Shown: piece by piece, positions 2,476 through 7,406 of the stretch | How the letters are laid out: every line of letters begins with the position of its first letter | How positions within the stretch are numbered: the first letter of the stretch is position 1 | Virus record (IMG/VR): IMGVR_UViG_2740892050_000004 | Strand: one strand, 5' to 3' | Length of the DNA stretch: 9,413 nucleotides | DNA from: a virus | Lineage: Duplodnaviria; Heunggongvirae; Uroviricota; Caudoviricetes | Notes under the pieces: model-generated | The model's input: only the letters and a program-made list of their open reading frames with translations | Database searches by the model: none | Told to the model about the DNA's origin: nothing | Made by a program: the position numbers and the translations under genes

Positions 2476-2769
2476 TTATTGTGAGCAATACACACGCGCT
2501 TCCAGTGGAGTATAAATGCCTAAAGTAATAAAACCGAGAAATCCATTTACGAATGTTTGCTGGGTTTCTGTTTTAACAACATTTTCTGCGCCGCCACAAA
2601 TTTTGGCTGCATCAACAGTTTTCTCCTGTCCAATTCCCGAAACGAAGAAATGATGGGTGATGGTTTCCTTTGGTGTTACTGCTGTCGGTTTGTTTCCAAC
2701 AGTAAACGTCTGTTGAGCACATCCTGTAATAAGCATTGCCAGAGCGGCAGAAAACAACATTTTTTTCAT
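2476..2769 (-). CDS. bor: Bor/Iss family outer-membrane lipoprotein (serum resistance, lysogenic-conversion moron), 97 aa
   Basis: Protein MKKMLFSAALAMLITGCAQQTFTVGNKPTAVTPKETITHHFFVSGIGQEKTVDAAKICGGAENVVKTETQQTFVNGFLGFITLGIYTPLEARVYCSQ has a lipobox LITGC and is near-identical to lambda Bor / plasmid Iss as I recall them. SD AGGA lies 7 nt upstream of the MKKM start. An in-frame upstream ATG at 2784 (MQDNKMKKM...) would give the 102-aa Iss-style annotation, but it falls inside the SD. Confidence 0.9.
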   Translation of the reverse strand: MKKMLFSAALAMLITGCAQQTFTVGNKPTAVTPKETITHHFFVSGIGQEKTVDAAKICGGAENVVKTETQQTFVNGFLGFITLGIYTPLEARVYCSQ

Positions 2770-3294: not shown

Positions 3295-3645
3295 ATGCCC
3301 CCACGAATCCCACGCGCCTGCCGTAAGCGTGGATGTGCAGGTACAACCACAGACAGTTCTGGTTACTGCGATAAACATCGTGGCGAAGGATGGGTACAGC
3401 ATCAACGCGGACTGAGCCGCCACCAGCGTGGCTATGGCTCGAAATGGGATGCCATACGTGCGCGCATACTGAAGCGTGATAATCATCTGTGTCAGAACTG
3501 CCTGCGCAATGGGAGAGCCGTTGAAGCCAGAACTGTGGACCACATCATTCCGAAAGCTCATGGTGGCACGGATGCAGACAGTAACCTGCAGAGTCTGTGC
3601 TGGCCCTGTCATAAAGCAAAAACAGCGCGCGAACGCATCAATTGA
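3295..3645 (+). CDS. HNH homing-type endonuclease associated with the terminase (HK97 gp74-like), 116 aa
   Basis: HNH/zinc-finger motif in CQNCLRNGRAVEARTVDHIIPKAHGGTDADSNLQSLCWPCHKAKT, with further Cys/His pairs in the N-terminal part. Start at ATG 3295 has GGAG 5 nt upstream. The position immediately upstream of terS is typical for HK97-like cos phages. Confidence 0.85.
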   Translation: MPPRIPRACRKRGCAGTTTDSSGYCDKHRGEGWVQHQRGLSRHQRGYGSKWDAIRARILKRDNHLCQNCLRNGRAVEARTVDHIIPKAHGGTDADSNLQSLCWPCHKAKTARERIN

Positions 3646-3660
3646 TAACAGTTCCCATCT

Positions 3661-3760
3661 GTAGGGGAGGGGCAGGCCAAATCTCTGCAACCCTGGCTGC
3701 TCAGTACCGCCGCCTGACCTTTCCTCGCATCGCCGCAGGTTCGAAAACTTTTTTTTGGAA
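3661..3760. other. candidate cos (cohesive-end) region between HNH and small terminase genes
   Basis: 148-bp non-coding gap with a G-rich block (GTAGGGGAGGGGCAGGCC), a CCGCCGCCTGACCT segment reminiscent of lambdoid cosN-type sequence, and a T8 tract. In HK97-like phages cos lies between the HNH gene and terS. The exact cut site cannot be assigned from sequence alone. Confidence 0.25.
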
Positions 3761-3792: not shown

Positions 3793-4275
3793 ATGTCTGG
3801 ACCCCCGAAAACCCCGCCACGCCTGCATTTGATACGAGGCAACCCCTCAAAGCGGCCAGTTAAAGACCTCAAAAAAACCGCTAAAAAGGATGAAAAAGGT
3901 CTCCCTAAAATTCCGCAACATTTAGGGGCGCAGGGGAAGTACTGGTTCAGGCGAATGGCGGAAGAGCTGAATGCGGAAGGGATCATTTCTCAGCTTGATG
4001 CGCGTGCGCTTGAGCTACTGGTGGAAGCCTATACCGAATACCGGCATCACTGCGAAACACTCGATGTTGAGGGGTACACCTACCGCTCGAAAACGCAGAA
4101 CGGTGATGTGCTGATTAAGGCACACCCGGCTGCTGCGATGAAAGCGGATGCCTGGAAGCGGATCCGGGCGATGCTTGCAGAATTTGGTATGTCACCGGCA
4201 AGCCGGGCAAAAGTAAATACCGCCGGACCGGATAATGTTGATCCGCTGGCAGAGCTTTTAAAAGCGAGAGACTGA
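3793..4275 (+). CDS. terminase small subunit (P27 / HK97 gp1 family)
   Basis: N-terminus MSGPPKTPPRLHLIRGNPSKRP is typical of P27-family small terminases. Its stop overlaps the large terminase start (TGATG). Confidence 0.85.
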   Translation: MSGPPKTPPRLHLIRGNPSKRPVKDLKKTAKKDEKGLPKIPQHLGAQGKYWFRRMAEELNAEGIISQLDARALELLVEAYTEYRHHCETLDVEGYTYRSKTQNGDVLIKAHPAAAMKADAWKRIRAMLAEFGMSPASRAKVNTAGPDNVDPLAELLKARD

Positions 4276-6032
4276 TGGCAAAAGTGGCTGACGGGATCCG
4301 CTACGCCGAACGTGTTGTTGCAGGAGAAATTGTTGCTGGCGAATTTGTCCGCCTGGCCTGCCAGCGTTTTCTTGATGATCTGAAGTACGGCGAAAAGCGG
4401 GGGATTTATTTCAGTGAACCCCGTGCGCAGCACATCCTGAATTTCTACAAATTTGTGCCTCATGTAAAAGGGGCACTGGCAGGCCAGCCCATTGAGTTGA
4501 TGGACTGGCATGTATTTATCCTCATTAATATTTTTGGTTTTGTCATTCCGCTGGTCAATGAAGAAACCGGGGAAGTTGTCATGCGCAGCGATGGCAGCGG
4601 ACGTCCGGTGATGGTGCGCCGGTTCCGGACGGCGTACAACGAAGTCGCCCGTAAAAACGCAAAATCAACCCTGTCATCGGGTATCGGCCTGTATATGACG
4701 GGGGCAGATAGTGAAGGCGGAGCTGAGGTGTATTCAGCCGCAACCACGCGTGACCAGGCCAGAATCGTGTTTGAAGACGCCAAAAATATGGTCAGAAAAG
4801 CCCGGTCGACACTCGGGCGGTTGTTTGATTTCAACAAGCTGGCGATTTACCAGGAGCAGAGCGCATCAAAATTTGAACCGCTTTCCTCGGATGCAAACAA
4901 CCTGGACGGTCTGAACATCCACTGCGCCATTATTGATGAGCTGCATGCACATAAAACCCGCGACGTGTGGGACGTTCTGGAAACGGCAACCGGTGCCCGT
5001 CTGCAGTCCCTGTTATTTGGTATCACCACGGCTGGCTTTAACAAGGAAGGGATTTGTTACGAGCAGCGTGATTACGCCATCAAGGTATTGCGAGGCTATA
5101 ACAGCGACGTGGAGGGCGCTGTAAAAGACGACTCTTACTTTGCGATCATTTACACGCTTGATGAGGGAGATGATCCGTTTGATGAAACGGTCTGGCAGAA
5201 AGCGAATCCTGGCCTGGGCATCTGTAAACGCTGGGATGATCTGCGTCGTCTGGCGAAAAAAGCGAAGGAGCAGGTCTCTGCGCGGGTGAATTTTTTTACC
5301 AAACACATGAATGTGTGGGTCACTGCCGAATCTGCCTGGATGGATATGATTAAGTGGGAGAAGTGCGAATACATTGCTCCACAACATGAGCTGAAAACAT
5401 ATCCCATGTGGGTCGGCGTCGACCTTGCTCATAAGATTGATATCTGTGCGGCGGCAAAACTCTGGCGAACCGATAACGGACATGTTCATGCTGATTTTAA
5501 ATTCTGGCTTCCGGAAGGACGGCTGGAACGATGCTCGCGGCAGCAGGCAGAACTTTACCGGAAGTGGGCGGAGATGGATAAGCTCATCCTGACGGATGGT
5601 GATGTTATCGATCATGCTCAGATAAAAAGTGACTTACTGGAATGGATTGGCGGTGAAAACCTCAGGGAACTGGGATTTGACCCGTGGAGCGCAATGCAGT
5701 TCAGTCTGGCACTGGCTGAAGAAGGGATACCGCTGGTGGAGGTTCCGCAGACGGTCCGCAATCTGTCAGAGGCCATGAAGGAAACGGAATCACTGGTTTA
5801 TGCCGGGCGTTTCCATCACAGCAATCATCCGGTCATGAACTGGATGATGTCTAACGTTACTGTAAAACCGGACAAAAACGACAACATCTTCCCGAATAAA
5901 TCCACGCCGGAAGCCAAAATCGACGGCCCTGTTGCGCTTTTTACAGCCATGAGCCGCTTTCTGGTAAATGGCGGGGGCGTGAATGACTTTCTGTCCACGC
6001 TTGATCCTGATGAGGACCTGTTAATTCTGTGA
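4275..6032 (+). CDS. terminase large subunit (HK97 gp2-like ATPase/nuclease), 585 aa
   Basis: Deviant Walker A region EVARKNAKST, Walker B LNIHCAIIDELH, coupling motif GITTAG, and a C-terminal nuclease-domain-sized region. Translationally coupled to terS. Confidence 0.95.
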   Translation: MAKVADGIRYAERVVAGEIVAGEFVRLACQRFLDDLKYGEKRGIYFSEPRAQHILNFYKFVPHVKGALAGQPIELMDWHVFILINIFGFVIPLVNEETGEVVMRSDGSGRPVMVRRFRTAYNEVARKNAKSTLSSGIGLYMTGADSEGGAEVYSAATTRDQARIVFEDAKNMVRKARSTLGRLFDFNKLAIYQEQSASKFEPLSSDANNLDGLNIHCAIIDELHAHKTRDVWDVLETATGARLQSLLFGITTAGFNKEGICYEQRDYAIKVLRGYNSDVEGAVKDDSYFAIIYTLDEGDDPFDETVWQKANPGLGICKRWDDLRRLAKKAKEQVSARVNFFTKHMNVWVTAESAWMDMIKWEKCEYIAPQHELKTYPMWVGVDLAHKIDICAAAKLWRTDNGHVHADFKFWLPEGRLERCSRQQAELYRKWAEMDKLILTDGDVIDHAQIKSDLLEWIGGENLRELGFDPWSAMQFSLALAEEGIPLVEVPQTVRNLSEAMKETESLVYAGRFHHSNHPVMNWMMSNVTVKPDKNDNIFPNKSTPEAKIDGPVALFTAMSRFLVNGGGVNDFLSTLDPDEDLLIL

Positions 6033-6190
6033 AACAGCTTATTACTGATATGACCGGGCTGATCGGTTTCGGTCTGCTCACTGCTGGCGTTTATCTGTAT
6101 GCAGGTCTGCCAGCGTCTCTGATGCTGTCTGGCTGTTTGTTGCTGCTTTATGCACTGGTGGTGTCCATGAGGAGAAAACATGCTTCTTGA
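6029..6190 (+). CDS. candidate small membrane protein (53 codons, two hydrophobic helices) between terminase and portal
   Basis: GTG at 6029 overlaps the terL stop (GTGA), with GAGGA 11 nt upstream. Alternative ATG at 6050. Product VKQLITDMTGLIGFGLLTAGVYLYAGLPASLMLSGCLLLLYALVVSMRRKHAS, stop at 6188-6190 overlapping the portal start by 11 nt. It fills an otherwise unexplained 147-bp gap in a tightly packed module. Confidence 0.35.
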   Translation: MKQLITDMTGLIGFGLLTAGVYLYAGLPASLMLSGCLLLLYALVVSMRRKHAS

Positions 6191-7406
6191 TGCTCTGTTT
6201 CGCAGTGAGCCTCTGGAAAATCCCTCGGTTCCGGTAACCGGAGAGGCCGCAGAGACGGATAATATTTTTGCCCGGGATGTGTATGTCAGTCCGGAAACGT
6301 CCATGAGGCTGGCTGCTGTCTATGCCTGTATTTATGTTATTTCATCCAGTGTGGCTCAGATGCCCCTGCATGTGATGCGAAAAACGAATGAGCATGTTCA
6401 GCCGGCACGCGATCACCCGTTGTTCTGGCTCGTTCATGATGAACCGAATGCCTGGCAGACCAGCTATAAGTGGCGGGAACTGAAGCAGCGTCATGTGCTG
6501 GGGTGGGGCAATGGTTATACGTGGGTGAAACGTAATCGTCGTGGCGAGGTTACCAGTCTTGAATGCTGTATGCCATGGGAAACCACGTTACTTAACACCG
6601 GAGGGCGTCATACCTACGGTGTGTATAACGAAGAGGGTGCATTTGCGGTAAGTCCGGACGACATGATCCATATCAGGGCGCTGGGAAACAATCAGAAAAT
6701 GGGACTGAGTCCGATCATGCAGCATGCTGAAACCATTGGTATGGGAATGAGTGGTCAGCAGTATACCAGTGCTTTTTTTAACGGTAATGCCCGTCCTGCC
6801 GGGATTATTTCTGTGAAAAATGAACTGAACGAACAGAGTTGGAGCAGGCTCAAGAATATGTGGCAGCGGGCGGTGACAGCGCTTCGCAGCCAGGAAAATA
6901 AAACCATGTTGCTGCCTGCGCAACTGGATTACCGCGCTCTGACAGTTTCTCCGGTGGATGCTCAGATCATTGATATGACCAAGCTGAACCGGTCGATGAT
7001 TGCCGGGATTTTTAATGTCCCGGCGCACATGATTAATGACCTGGAAAAAGCCACATTTTCGAATATTACGCAGCAGGCGATTCAGTTTGTTCGCTACACG
7101 ATGATGCCCTGGGTTGCGAACTGGGAGCAGGAGCTTAACCGTCGCCTGTTTACCCGTACAGAACGGGCTGCCGGGTATTACGTTCGTTTCAACCTCACGG
7201 GGTTGCTCCGTGGGACCCCACAGGAGCGTGCGCAGTTCTATCACTTTGCCATTACAGATGGCTGGATGAGTCGGAATGAAGCCAGGGCATTTGAGGATAT
7301 GAACCCGGTTGACGGTCTGGATGAAATGCTGGTCAGCGTAAATGCAGCAAATCCGTTGAATAACTTTAAAGATACGAAAGGCAAAGAGGAAAAGAACGAT
7401 GAATGA
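6180..7406 (+). CDS. portal protein (HK97 family), 408 aa
   Basis: Size, position after terL and overall sequence character fit HK97-family portals. GAGGAG lies 6 nt upstream of the ATG. The stop overlaps the protease start. Confidence 0.95.
   Translation: MLLDALFRSEPLENPSVPVTGEAAETDNIFARDVYVSPETSMRLAAVYACIYVISSSVAQMPLHVMRKTNEHVQPARDHPLFWLVHDEPNAWQTSYKWRELKQRHVLGWGNGYTWVKRNRRGEVTSLECCMPWETTLLNTGGRHTYGVYNEEGAFAVSPDDMIHIRALGNNQKMGLSPIMQHAETIGMGMSGQQYTSAFFNGNARPAGIISVKNELNEQSWSRLKNMWQRAVTALRSQENKTMLLPAQLDYRALTVSPVDAQIIDMTKLNRSMIAGIFNVPAHMINDLEKATFSNITQQAIQFVRYTMMPWVANWEQELNRRLFTRTERAAGYYVRFNLTGLLRGTPQERAQFYHFAITDGWMSRNEARAFEDMNPVDGLDEMLVSVNAANPLNNFKDTKGKEEKNDE

What the first reader, a model, noticed from the sequence alone, without database searches (positions are those of the whole stretch)
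6029..6190. Hydrophobic micro-ORF filling the gap between large terminase and portal
Seen: every other junction in the head module overlaps or abuts (terS/terL by 1 nt, portal/protease by 8 nt), but terL and portal are separated by 147 nt. That gap holds a 53-codon frame starting at GTG overlapping the terL stop and ending 11 nt into the portal gene. Its product has two predicted hydrophobic helices and a basic C-terminal tail (RRKHAS). Inference: a small membrane protein expressed with the packaging genes, with no obvious role in head assembly. Possibilities are a membrane anchor for assembly, a superinfection-exclusion peptide or a holin-like protein.
Basis: seen in the sequence. Interest (0 to 1): 0.45.

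Follow-up and report, generated by a model that had tools for sequence, protein, structure and literature searches.

The report
Small membrane protein gene beside portal
The 53-codon frame between the large terminase and portal genes is a real, conserved phage gene for a tiny two-helix membrane protein that is inherited with the portal gene; it is already annotated as a hypothetical protein and nobody knows what it does.

Summary
The ORF at 6029-6190 (GTG start, 53 aa) fills the 147-nt terL-portal gap. Its start overlaps the terL stop (GTGA) and it ends 11 nt inside portal.

It is a real gene:
- A homologous hydrophobic ORF of 47-69 aa sits at the same junction in 55 of 56 portal-anchored loci from many gammaproteobacteria, and in a Ralstonia phage.
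- dN/dS is below 1 only in this frame.
- AlphaFold gives a helical hairpin (pLDDT 84).

It is not new as a sequence. RefSeq annotates the identical ORF as a hypothetical protein. It belongs to phrog_7105, is homologous to Pseudomonas phage D3 Orf3, and is related to phrog_502. Pfam DUF1056 is a positional look-alike in Gram-positive phages.

Three further findings:
- The ORF has no ribosome-binding site of its own in 44 of 45 loci, so it is probably translated by coupling to terL.
- The portal ribosome-binding site lies in its last codons, which partly explains the "basic tail".
- Recombination breakpoints fall about 50 nt before the terL stop, so the terL tail, the micro-ORF and portal travel as one block.

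HK97 and several other relatives lack it, so it is an accessory gene. Its function is unknown. My best guess (about 0.35) is a portal- or packaging-vertex-associated membrane factor. A holin role is unlikely.

The parts
6029..6190 (+). Micro-ORF coding sequence: 53 aa, GTG start, TGA stop at 6188-6190. It encodes a predicted two-helix inner-membrane hairpin.
   Evidence: ORF list and translation. phrog_7105 match, E 9.4e-20, full length. Identical ORF annotated in RefSeq as WP_000811487.1. Conserved frame and dN/dS below 1. AF2 hairpin.
6029..6032 (+). GTGA start/stop overlap with terL, the likely site of translational coupling (termination-reinitiation).
   Evidence: Most relatives have ATGA or GTGA at this point. 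Some Halomonas, Marinobacter and Pseudomonas versions start 3-12 nt after the terL stop. A Shine-Dalgarno-like core at -14..-7 is found in only 1 of 45 loci.
6050..6103 (+). Predicted transmembrane helix 1 (residues about 8-25). It contains the invariant G13 and G20 and the near-invariant G10 and Y22.
   Evidence: Alignments A3 and A4. AF2 helix 2-25. Hydropathy profile and helical-wheel angles.
6104..6112 (+). Tight turn (G26-L27-P28) with the invariant G26.
   Evidence: AF2 helix break at residue 26. G26 is invariant in 61 sequences.
6113..6166 (+). Predicted transmembrane helix 2 (residues about 29-46). It contains the invariant G35 and the near-invariant L31 and A42, which lie on one helical face.
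6169..6174 (+). Portal Shine-Dalgarno sequence GAGGAG, 5 nt before the portal ATG. It lies inside micro-ORF codons 47-49 (M-R-R).
   Evidence: Sequence. A Shine-Dalgarno-like core is present upstream of portal in 41 of 45 loci, always inside the micro-ORF 3' end.
5985..6032 (+). Last 15 codons of terL (DFLSTLDPDEDLLIL) plus the stop codon: an acidic tail that belongs to the co-inherited block.
   Evidence: The tail is conserved across two terL lineages that are otherwise 34-41% identical. Nucleotide identity between such pairs jumps from about 50% to 80-98% roughly 50 nt before the terL stop.
4275..6032 (+). Large terminase gene (upstream neighbour).
   Evidence: Pfam TerL_ATPase and TerL_nuclease.
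6180..7406 (+). Portal gene (downstream neighbour and co-inherited partner).
   Evidence: Pfam Phage_portal, E 1.9e-100. Micro-ORF identity tracks portal identity (Spearman 0.70) more than terL identity (0.46).

Best explanation
SHOWN. ORF 6029-6190 is a genuine late-operon gene. Its product is an approximately 53-aa hydrophobic helical hairpin. Small residues are invariant or nearly so on matching helix faces (G13 and G20 in helix 1; G35 and A42 in helix 2). G26 is invariant at the turn. Charged residues occur only at the two ends. This predicts a two-pass inner-membrane protein with both ends in the cytoplasm.

It belongs to a superfamily made up of phrog_7105, phrog_4810 (Pseudomonas phage D3 Orf3) and phrog_502. 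In every case examined, members are encoded exactly between a PF03354-type terL and a PF04860 portal.

It has no ribosome-binding site of its own, and its start overlaps the terL stop. It carries the portal ribosome-binding site in its last codons, and its stop lies inside portal. Recombination between divergent terL lineages occurs about 50 nt upstream of the terL stop, so the acidic terL C-terminal tail, the micro-ORF and portal are inherited as one block.

INFERRED. It is made in small amounts by ribosomes that reinitiate after terL, and it inserts into the cytoplasmic membrane.

INFERRED, SPECULATIVE. It acts together with the portal or packaging vertex at the membrane, for example by tethering or nucleating the portal ring or prohead. 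This would be the same logic as T4 gp40 for the membrane-bound gp20 initiator. It would be a lineage-specific accessory rather than a core component.

Confidence that it is a real conserved membrane-protein gene of the portal module is about 0.95. Confidence in the portal-associated membrane function is about 0.35.
For: - Gene reality: frame kept without indels at 46-62% identity. dN/dS 0.12-0.77 in frame against about 0.6-3.5 out of frame. Present in 55 of 56 portal-anchored loci across Enterobacterales, Halomonas, Marinobacter, Pseudomonas and Idiomarina, and in a Ralstonia phage. 79 of 80 close viral contigs keep the start and frame, and their substitutions are mostly synonymous.
- Membrane hairpin: AF2 helices 2-25 and 27-52, pLDDT 83.8. 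Hydropathy and charge layout. Invariant glycines.
- Family: phrog_7105 E 9e-20. All 32 members hit phrog_7105, 21 hit phrog_502 and 13 hit phrog_4810. hhalign against the D3 Orf3 family gives probability 96.5%, E 8e-10, score 47.6, against 13.3 +/- 3.2 for column-shuffled controls.
- Fixed position: searches anchored on four divergent members themselves again place the gene directly downstream of TerL. The next gene is a Pfam Phage_portal in three of them, and a cut, unannotated gene in the fourth.
- Coupling: Shine-Dalgarno-like core in 1 of 45 micro-ORFs against 41 of 45 portals. No promoter or terminator, and GC content like the neighbours.
- Portal linkage: the same portal (about 80% identical) plus micro-ORF is joined to two terL lineages. 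Breakpoints lie about 50 nt before the terL stop in four independent pairs. The terL tail is conserved with the portal lineage.
- Precedent: membrane-bound portal initiation in T4 depends on gp40 (PMC9958956).
Against: - There is no direct evidence of expression, membrane insertion or any partner.
- HK97, Aeromonas AsXd-1, Serratianator (terL 50% identical), Psymv2, Vibrio 19E33.1, a Staphylococcus PVL phage, Javan261, McSteamy and a 936-type phage all lack such a gene.
- The capsid-forming satellite EcCIEDL933 builds and fills HK97-type capsids without one. It therefore cannot be a general requirement of HK97-type assembly.
- It evolves much faster than portal (46-62% against 79-88% identity). 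That suits an accessory or conflict-related protein as well as it suits a structural partner.
- Co-inheritance with portal could simply reflect a recombination hotspot at the conserved terL tail.
- No portal N-terminal feature distinguishes portals that have the micro-ORF from those that lack it.
Confidence: 0.35

Rival explanations
1. A late-expressed membrane effector unrelated to head assembly. Examples would be a superinfection-exclusion or DNA-entry blocker, a modulator of lysis timing (holin- or antiholin-like), or another host-membrane takeover peptide that happens to be lodged at the terL-portal junction.
For: - Small two-TM proteins are typical of such functions.
- PHROGs files the related phrog_502 under 'moron, auxiliary metabolic gene and host takeover: membrane protein'.
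- Patchy distribution and fast evolution relative to portal fit an accessory or conflict gene.
- There are very weak, sub-threshold hits to Phage_holin_3_6 in 2 of 32 members (E 0.026).
Against: - It has no promoter, terminator or compositional signature of a moron.
- Lacking a Shine-Dalgarno sequence, it is probably made at low level, unlike holins.
- The window already has a complete lysis cassette with a class II holin.
- Its position next to portal is invariant in every case examined, whichever lysis or immunity genes the phage carries.
- It has no match in PADLOC.
- Known exclusion genes are expressed early or from the prophage (my own knowledge of T4 imm and HK97 gp15).
Confidence: 0.3
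2. A virion-associated hydrophobic peptide. It would be carried at or in the portal vertex or capsid and released on infection to help DNA cross the inner membrane, acting as a pilot or ejection protein.
For: - It is co-inherited and co-translated with portal.
- A low copy number would match a vertex-associated component.
- Small hydrophobic peptides are easily missed by virion mass spectrometry (my own knowledge).
Against: - No evidence of virion association was found in any paper retrieved.
- A fully hydrophobic hairpin with no soluble domain would need a chaperone or the membrane.
- HK97 and other relatives inject DNA without it.
Confidence: 0.1
3. Mainly a translational-coupling spacer. 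Its translation would carry ribosomes from terL across the gap and keep the portal ribosome-binding site accessible. The peptide itself would matter little.
For: - Start/stop overlap at both ends, no Shine-Dalgarno sequence of its own, and the portal Shine-Dalgarno sequence embedded in its 3' end.
- In HK97, terL and portal are directly coupled by a start/stop overlap.
Against: - Amino-acid-level constraint: dN/dS below 1 in this frame only, with five invariant positions (M1 and four glycines) across 61 sequences and fixed length.
- The same two-helix hydrophobic design recurs in families that barely share sequence: D3 Orf3, phrog_502 and DUF1056.
- No stable RNA structure needs unmasking (fold z-score -0.44), and there is no Rfam match.
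Confidence: 0.1
4. A lambda gpW-like head-completion ('head-tail joining') protein, as the position between terL and portal and the Pfam text for DUF1056 suggest.
For: - It has the same map position as lambda W, between A and B (my own knowledge).
- From my recollection, not checked here, the Pfam description of DUF1056 calls its members putative head-tail joining proteins. The tool output gives only 'Protein of unknown function (DUF1056)'.
Against: - No Pfam match of any kind, including gpW.
- The protein is hydrophobic throughout and is predicted to be a membrane hairpin, unlike soluble gpW.
- The module already encodes a head-tail connector and a head closure protein downstream.
Confidence: 0.03
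5. A chance open frame in a non-coding spacer.
For: It is short, starts at GTG and has no Shine-Dalgarno sequence of its own.
Against: Conservation, synteny and codon-level selection. The start is ATG in most relatives.
Confidence: 0.01

Closest known systems
RefSeq WP_000811487.1 'hypothetical protein' / PHROG phrog_7105 (unknown function)
   Same: PGAP annotates the ORF with the same coordinates, between terL and portal, in a locus whose micro-ORF region is 100% identical to the window. There is a full-length phrog_7105 match, E 9.4e-20. The region is present in 634 of 5426 complete E. coli genomes.
   Different: Nothing differs; this is the same gene. Neither resource assigns a function.
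Pseudomonas phage D3 Orf3 / PMG1_0003 (phrog_4810)
   Same: 54 aa and a two-helix hydrophobic design. It overlaps the terL stop by 4 nt and the portal start by 8 nt. The profile-profile match is significant and well above shuffled controls. 13 of 32 family members hit phrog_4810.
   Different: Only about 24% identical over 38 aligned columns. It has a different invariant C-terminal motif (FIRKGLTSE). It is associated with a ClpP-type protease and a portal only 28% identical. Its function is equally unknown.
phrog_502 'membrane protein' (e.g. the unannotated 61-aa ORF of Klebsiella phage Kp4882-1)
   Same: Same position between terL and portal and the same two-helix hydrophobic design. 21 of 32 family members cross-hit it (best E 2.8e-8).
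   Different: A separate PHROG with weaker similarity. Its PHROG category (moron / host takeover) follows the 'membrane protein' annotation, and no supporting experiment was found in the searches here.
Pfam DUF1056 (PF06341) = phrog_1142, in phages of Gram-positive hosts; seen here in a Streptococcus thermophilus cos phage
   Same: A 59-aa ORF with two hydrophobic helices lies in the terL-portal gap of S. thermophilus phage 115, where it is unannotated. The position and architecture are the same.
   Different: There is no Pfam hit for the window family. hhalign scores 12.5 against 10.2 +/- 2.2 for shuffled controls, which is not significant. Only sporadic weak cross-hits occur (2 of 32 members at 1.2e-4; Vibrio p41 at 1.2e-3). 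Homology is not shown.
T4 gp40 (factor required for the membrane-bound gp20 portal initiator)
   Same: It is the only established precedent for a phage factor that helps the portal assemble at the inner membrane (PMC9958956). The working hypothesis here uses the same logic.
   Different: T4 has a different head module and gene order, and gp40 is not encoded between terL and portal. This is a functional analogy only.
Class II holins / pinholins (e.g. lambdoid S21)
   Same: Small size, two predicted transmembrane helices, both ends predicted to be cytoplasmic, and a charged C-terminus.
   Different: - It is not in the lysis cassette, which in this window has its own class II holin.
- It has no Shine-Dalgarno sequence, so is probably made at low level.
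- It has no conserved dual-start motif; Met8 is not conserved.
- It has no significant holin family hit.
- The basic tail is partly explained by the portal Shine-Dalgarno sequence.
HK97 gp15 (inner-membrane superinfection-exclusion moron within the late region; my own knowledge)
   Same: A small membrane protein encoded among virion genes.
   Different: Morons carry their own promoter and terminator and are expressed from the prophage. None was found here, and GC content matches the neighbours. HK97 has no gene at the terL-portal junction.

Membership tests
phrog_7105 (terL-portal junction small hydrophobic protein) | Full-length profile match | tested here: met
   E 9.4e-20, residues 1-52 against profile positions 1-52 of 52. 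All 32 aligned relatives match.
phrog_7105 (terL-portal junction small hydrophobic protein) | Encoded between a PF03354/PF20441 terL and a PF04860 portal | tested here: met
   Window. 55 of 56 portal-anchored loci. Four member-anchored look-ups all place the gene directly downstream of TerL, and in three the next gene carries Pfam Phage_portal.
D3 Orf3 family (phrog_4810) | Detectable homology by profile-profile comparison, above compositional controls | tested here: met
   hhalign probability 96.5%, E 8e-10, score 47.6. The reversed control scores 17.5 and column-shuffled controls 13.3 +/- 3.2 (maximum 22.8).
Pfam DUF1056 (PF06341) | Match to the Pfam model at its gathering score | tested here: not met
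   No hit at E up to 1 for the window protein or for any of 32 relatives. The S. thermophilus gap ORF does match (37 bits against a cut-off of 22.2).
Pfam DUF1056 (PF06341) | Profile-profile similarity above shuffled controls | tested here: not met
   Score 12.5 against 10.2 +/- 2.2. The DUF1056 alignment used was shallow, with members at least 90% identical.
Class II holin / pinholin | Two transmembrane helices with both ends cytoplasmic | tested here: met
   AF2 hairpin. Charges occur only at the N- and C-termini. This is a prediction only.
Class II holin / pinholin | Located in the lysis cassette next to the endolysin | tested here: not met
   The lysis cassette (holin, lysozyme, Rz-like) lies at about 819-2444 in the window. 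The micro-ORF lies between terL and portal in every relative examined.
Class II holin / pinholin | Significant match to a holin family | tested here: not met
   The best result is Phage_holin_3_6 at E 0.026, in 2 of 32 members, below any threshold.
Class II holin / pinholin | Membrane permeabilisation on accumulation | not testable with these tools
   This needs expression and lysis assays. The absence of a Shine-Dalgarno sequence argues for low expression.
Moron (independently expressed lysogenic-conversion gene) | Own promoter and terminator, and atypical composition | tested here: not met
   No promoter-like or terminator-like site flanks the ORF. GC is 49.4% against 50.6-51.2% for the neighbouring genes.
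Lambda gpW-type head completion protein | Soluble small protein matching the gpW family | tested here: not met
   No Pfam hit. The protein is hydrophobic throughout.
Anti-phage defence / exclusion proteins (PADLOC) | Match to a known defence-system protein model | tested here: not met
   No match for the window protein. Only two chance-level hits (E 0.023 and 0.054) among 32 relatives.
T4 gp40-like portal assembly factor | Required for portal ring assembly at the inner membrane | not testable with these tools
   This is a functional definition and needs genetics and fractionation. Only the linkage to portal was shown here.

The most novel reading that the evidence does not exclude
The terL-tail / micro-ORF / portal block encodes a membrane-docking device. 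The two-pass hairpin would anchor the nascent portal ring, or the packaging vertex, to the cytoplasmic membrane, possibly through its basic cytoplasmic tail and the acidic surfaces of portal or the acidic TerL tail. If so, membrane-nucleated head assembly or packaging, so far documented essentially only for T4 (gp20/gp40), would be widespread among HK97-type phages of Gram-negative bacteria. It could also extend to Gram-positive bacteria through DUF1056-like analogues.
Probability: 0.2. Interest if true: 0.65.

Novelty: already known. Interest (0 to 1): 0.35.

Why it matters
The gene is in about one in nine complete E. coli genomes (634 of 5426). It has relatives or look-alikes at the same junction in phages of Enterobacterales, Pseudomonas, Halomonas, Vibrio, Ralstonia, Streptococcus and Lactobacillus. 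It has no Pfam family, and no described function turned up in the papers I could search.

It sits at the heart of the best-studied phage module. It is inherited together with portal and with the terL C-terminal tail, which I take to be the portal-docking end of terL. That makes it a cheap and well-defined knockout target for asking whether portal assembly or DNA packaging is membrane-associated outside T4.

There are also practical points for annotation. The ORF is missed in several deposited genomes (SfV, S. thermophilus phage 115, Pseudomonas SC_8). In SfV the portal start appears to be called too far upstream as a result.

Tried and rejected
- Pfam, NCBIfam and PADLOC scans of the protein and 32 relatives gave no significant family.
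- A PDB sequence search and a Foldseek search of the AF2 model against viral structures gave nothing significant. A bare helical hairpin is uninformative.
- The non-coding alternatives failed: no Rfam match, RNA fold z-score -0.44, and no promoter or terminator.
- The antisense 159-aa ORF 5825-6304 is open only in the window type. Relatives have stops in all reverse frames.
- Nine of the ten allowed literature searches found no description of the gene or of DUF1056 function: terminase/portal with transmembrane, small ORF, DUF1056, PHROG and RefSeq identifiers, small phage proteins. The D3 genome paper is not held.
- I hoped that the 'hypothetical gene 1792' of the capsid-forming satellite EcCIEDL933, whose mutation severely reduces transfer, might be an equivalent. 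In EDL933 the satellite's terL and portal are not adjacent, and its three small hypothetical proteins are all hydrophilic. This was a dead end. It also shows that an HK97-type capsid and packaging module can work without such a protein.
- I looked for Rosetta-stone fusions to portal or terL. The only candidate was one 131-aa frameshift-type fusion on a short contig (P0022), which is not informative.
- I looked for a portal N-terminal feature specific to portals that have the micro-ORF and found none.
- The search for related loci with the family alignment failed because no stretch was conserved enough.
Full report
OBSERVATION

The window carries a lambdoid-prophage late region: a lysis cassette, an iss/bor-like gene, HNH, terS, terL, portal, an S78 protease and the major capsid protein (Pfam; RefSeq annotation of an E. 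coli locus, L001, whose micro-ORF region is 100% identical and whose gene coordinates match the window's ORFs at an offset of 1051). terL is 4275-6032 and portal is 6180-7406, leaving 147 nt between them. The ORF 6029-6190 (GTG start, 53 aa) starts inside the terL stop (GTGA) and ends 11 nt inside portal.

IS IT A GENE?

Yes, on several independent lines of evidence.
- PGAP annotates exactly this ORF as hypothetical protein WP_000811487.1. The region occurs in 634 of 5426 complete E. coli genomes.
- The protein matches phrog_7105 over its full length (E 9.4e-20).
- Phages of Morganella, Edwardsiella, Shigella (SfV), Klebsiella, E. coli and Salmonella carry an ORF of 52-53 codons at the same junction. 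It is 46-62% identical with no indels, and 14 columns are invariant.
- For the divergent pairs where dS could be estimated, Nei-Gojobori dN/dS is 0.12-0.77 in the ORF frame, against about 0.6-3.5 in the two shifted frames.
- I ran a portal-anchored scan of one genome per species. It found a homologous hydrophobic ORF of 47-69 aa in 55 of 56 usable loci, including Halomonas, Marinobacter, Pseudomonas and Idiomarina, where portal is only 56-62% identical. The single exception is a degraded prophage of an endosymbiont in which terL is also broken.
- Of 80 closely related viral contigs, 79 keep the start codon and the open frame. L040 diverges over the first four codons next to a contig end. Of the 12 intact E. 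coli-type nucleotide alleles, 10 encode the identical peptide.
- Searches anchored on four divergent family members themselves again place the gene directly after TerL. The next gene is a Phage_portal in three cases and a cut, unannotated gene in the fourth. In one case the head module has an S49/ClpP-type protease.
- The non-coding alternatives fail: no Rfam match, no unusual RNA stability (z = -0.44), and the antisense ORF is not conserved.

WHAT THE PROTEIN LOOKS LIKE

AlphaFold2 with a 61-sequence alignment predicts two helices (residues 2-25 and 27-52) forming a hairpin, with mean pLDDT 83.8.
- Hydropathy is high from residue 3 to 46.
- Charges occur only at the ends: K2 and D7, then R48 R49 K50 H51.
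- M1, G13, G20, G26 and G35 are invariant across 61 sequences. G10, Y22, L31 and A42 are nearly so.
- G13 and G20 lie on one face of helix 1, and L31, G35 and A42 lie on one face of helix 2. This is what tight helix-helix packing would require.

The prediction is a two-pass inner-membrane protein with both ends in the cytoplasm. Membrane insertion itself is inferred, not shown.

HOW IT IS EXPRESSED (ANATOMY SHOWN, MECHANISM INFERRED)

No promoter-like or terminator-like site flanks the ORF, and its GC content matches its neighbours. It is therefore not a classic moron.

In 44 of 45 loci there is no Shine-Dalgarno-like core 7-14 nt before its start. In most of them the start overlaps the terL stop (ATGA or GTGA). 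In some Halomonas, Marinobacter and Pseudomonas versions it follows the stop by 3-12 nt. In contrast, 41 of 45 portal genes have such a core, and it always lies inside the last codons of the micro-ORF.

The likely consequence is low-level translation by ribosomes that terminate at terL and reinitiate. The 'basic tail' (R-R/G-K) is dual-coded with the purine-rich portal ribosome-binding site, so that feature is only partly a protein property.

MODULE LINKAGE

Portals of the Enterobacterales loci are all about 80% identical to the window's. Their terL genes fall into two lineages: 66-86% or only 34-41% identical over the last 300 residues. Micro-ORF identity follows portal (Spearman 0.70) more than terL (0.46).

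In four independent pairs that differ in terL lineage, nucleotide identity jumps from about 50% to 80-98% roughly 50 nt before the terL stop. The last about 15 residues of terL (DFLSxLDPD[DE][DE]LL[IF]L) are conserved with the portal lineage, not with the terL body.

So the acidic terL tail, the micro-ORF and portal are inherited as one block. In HK97 the TerL C-terminal (nuclease) domains sit directly under the portal clip (PMC10359639). That the extreme C-terminus of the large terminase contacts portal is my own knowledge from lambda gpA.

WIDER FAMILY AND DISTRIBUTION

- The family is homologous to Pseudomonas phage D3 Orf3 / PMG1_0003 (phrog_4810). That protein is 54 aa and has the same overlaps with terL and portal. 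hhalign gives probability 96.5% and score 47.6, against 13.3 +/- 3.2 for shuffled controls.
- It cross-hits phrog_502 'membrane protein', exemplified by an unannotated 61-aa ORF at the same junction in Klebsiella phage Kp4882-1.
- Further members or look-alikes at the same junction are in Vibrio phages K260 and p41, Pseudomonas phage SC_8, Ralstonia phage YO009_2 and Lactobacillus phage JNU_P1.
- In Streptococcus thermophilus phage 115, a 200-nt 'gap' holds an unannotated 59-aa two-helix ORF that is Pfam DUF1056 / phrog_1142. I could not show homology between DUF1056 and the window family. It is a positional and architectural analogue.
- The gene is absent from HK97 itself (terL and portal overlap directly), Aeromonas AsXd-1, Serratianator (although its terL is 50% identical), Psymv2, Vibrio 19E33.1, a Staphylococcus PVL phage, Javan261, McSteamy and a 936-type lactococcal phage, which has an HNH gene there.
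- The capsid-forming satellite EcCIEDL933 also has none.

The gene is therefore widespread but sporadic, and it cannot be a universal requirement of HK97-type assembly or packaging.

MECHANISM

What is shown:
- a conserved peptide under purifying selection;
- a predicted membrane hairpin;
- start and stop overlaps with both neighbours and no ribosome-binding site of its own (translational coupling is inferred from this);
- co-inheritance with portal and the terL tail.

From this I commit, with modest confidence (about 0.35), to a portal- or packaging-vertex-associated membrane factor. It would be a low-copy tether or nucleator that brings the portal ring or prohead initiation complex, or the packaging motor, to the cytoplasmic membrane. 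The only established precedent for such logic is T4, where the gp20 portal initiator assembles on the inner membrane with the help of gp40 (PMC9958956).

The rivals, with my confidence in each:
- An assembly-unrelated late membrane effector, for exclusion, lysis timing or host takeover (about 0.3). Patchy distribution and fast evolution favour it. The fixed position, the missing promoter and Shine-Dalgarno sequence, and the presence of a complete lysis cassette argue against it.
- A virion-borne pilot peptide (about 0.1).
- A coupling spacer whose peptide is secondary (about 0.1). The amino-acid-level constraint and the recurrence of the same hydrophobic design in barely related families argue against it.
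- A gpW-like head-completion protein (about 0.03). The hydropathy contradicts it.
- A chance ORF (about 0.01).

NOVELTY AND VERDICT

The ORF and its family are already in the databases as proteins of unknown function, and D3 Orf3 has been annotated for years.

What this analysis adds:
- the unification of three PHROG families;
- the invariance of the position;
- the lack of an own ribosome-binding site and the dual-coded portal Shine-Dalgarno sequence;
- the recombination breakpoint that ties the gene to portal and the terL tail.

No experimental information on function was found in the literature available to me. Interest is moderate (0.35). This is a well-defined, cheap-to-test 'known unknown' in a classic module, not a surprise in kind.

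Noticed in passing
window 5985-6032; loci L088-L147 at about 2300-2353: The last about 15 residues of terL (DFLSxLDPD[DE][DE]LL[IF]L) are conserved across two terL lineages that are otherwise only 34-41% identical. Pairwise nucleotide identity jumps from about 50% to 80-98% roughly 50 nt before the terL stop. This indicates a recurrent recombination junction inside the terL 3' end. It also suggests the acidic tail co-evolves with portal.
   Followed up: partly
L004 (SfV, NC_003444) 2289-2450: SfV carries the micro-ORF but does not annotate it. Its portal start is called at 2392, 48 nt upstream of the conserved GTG at 2440, so the annotated portal overlaps most of the micro-ORF. This is probably a mis-called start.
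   Followed up: partly
L155 (S. thermophilus phage 115) about 2705-2884; L320 (Pseudomonas SC_8) after 3486; L322 (Ralstonia YO009_2) 2820-2984; L323 (Klebsiella Kp4882-1) 3502-3687: Equivalent small two-helix ORFs at the terL-portal junction are unannotated in several deposited phage genomes. The S. thermophilus one is Pfam DUF1056.
   Followed up: yes
window 6169-6174: The portal Shine-Dalgarno sequence (GAGGAG) lies in codons 47-49 of the micro-ORF. Across 45 loci the portal ribosome-binding site is nearly always inside the micro-ORF 3' end, so the conserved R-R/G residues are dual-coded.
   Followed up: yes
window 5825-6304, minus strand: A 159-aa ATG ORF runs antisense across the whole feature. 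It is open only in the window type, and relatives have stops in every reverse frame over the micro-ORF. It is probably spurious.
   Followed up: partly
L124, L125, L127, L128, L131, L132 (Halomonas / Marinobacter loci): These homologues have extended basic, Pro/Ala/Lys-rich C-terminal tails (e.g. KRSPVPDPQKKTPAQPPRKR) beyond the hairpin. Their starts lie a few nt after the terL stop rather than overlapping it. A flexible cationic cytoplasmic tail might be the business end of the protein.
   Followed up: no
L142 (Candidatus Symbiopectobacterium endolongispinus): This is the only portal-anchored locus without an intact micro-ORF. The terL 3' end is also disrupted, and only the C-terminal two-thirds of the micro-ORF remains. 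That is consistent with prophage decay in an endosymbiont.
   Followed up: no
window 2476-2769 (minus strand), 819-2444 and 3295-3645: The window also carries an iss/bor-like serum-survival lipoprotein gene on the opposite strand, between the lysis cassette and the packaging genes. It has a class II holin, YdfR, lysozyme and Rz-like lysis cassette. An HNH endonuclease lies just upstream of the P27-family terS, the arrangement seen upstream of terS in several relatives examined here and, from my own knowledge, typical of HK97-type cos packaging modules.
   Followed up: no
L335 (E. coli EDL933, NZ_CP008957.1 1688124-1694760): The capsid-forming satellite EcCIEDL933 has the gene order capsid, protease, portal, connectors, HNH, terS, terL, so terL and portal are not adjacent. 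Its three small hypothetical proteins are hydrophilic. One of them may be the 'hypothetical gene 1792' whose mutation severely reduces transfer.
   Followed up: partly
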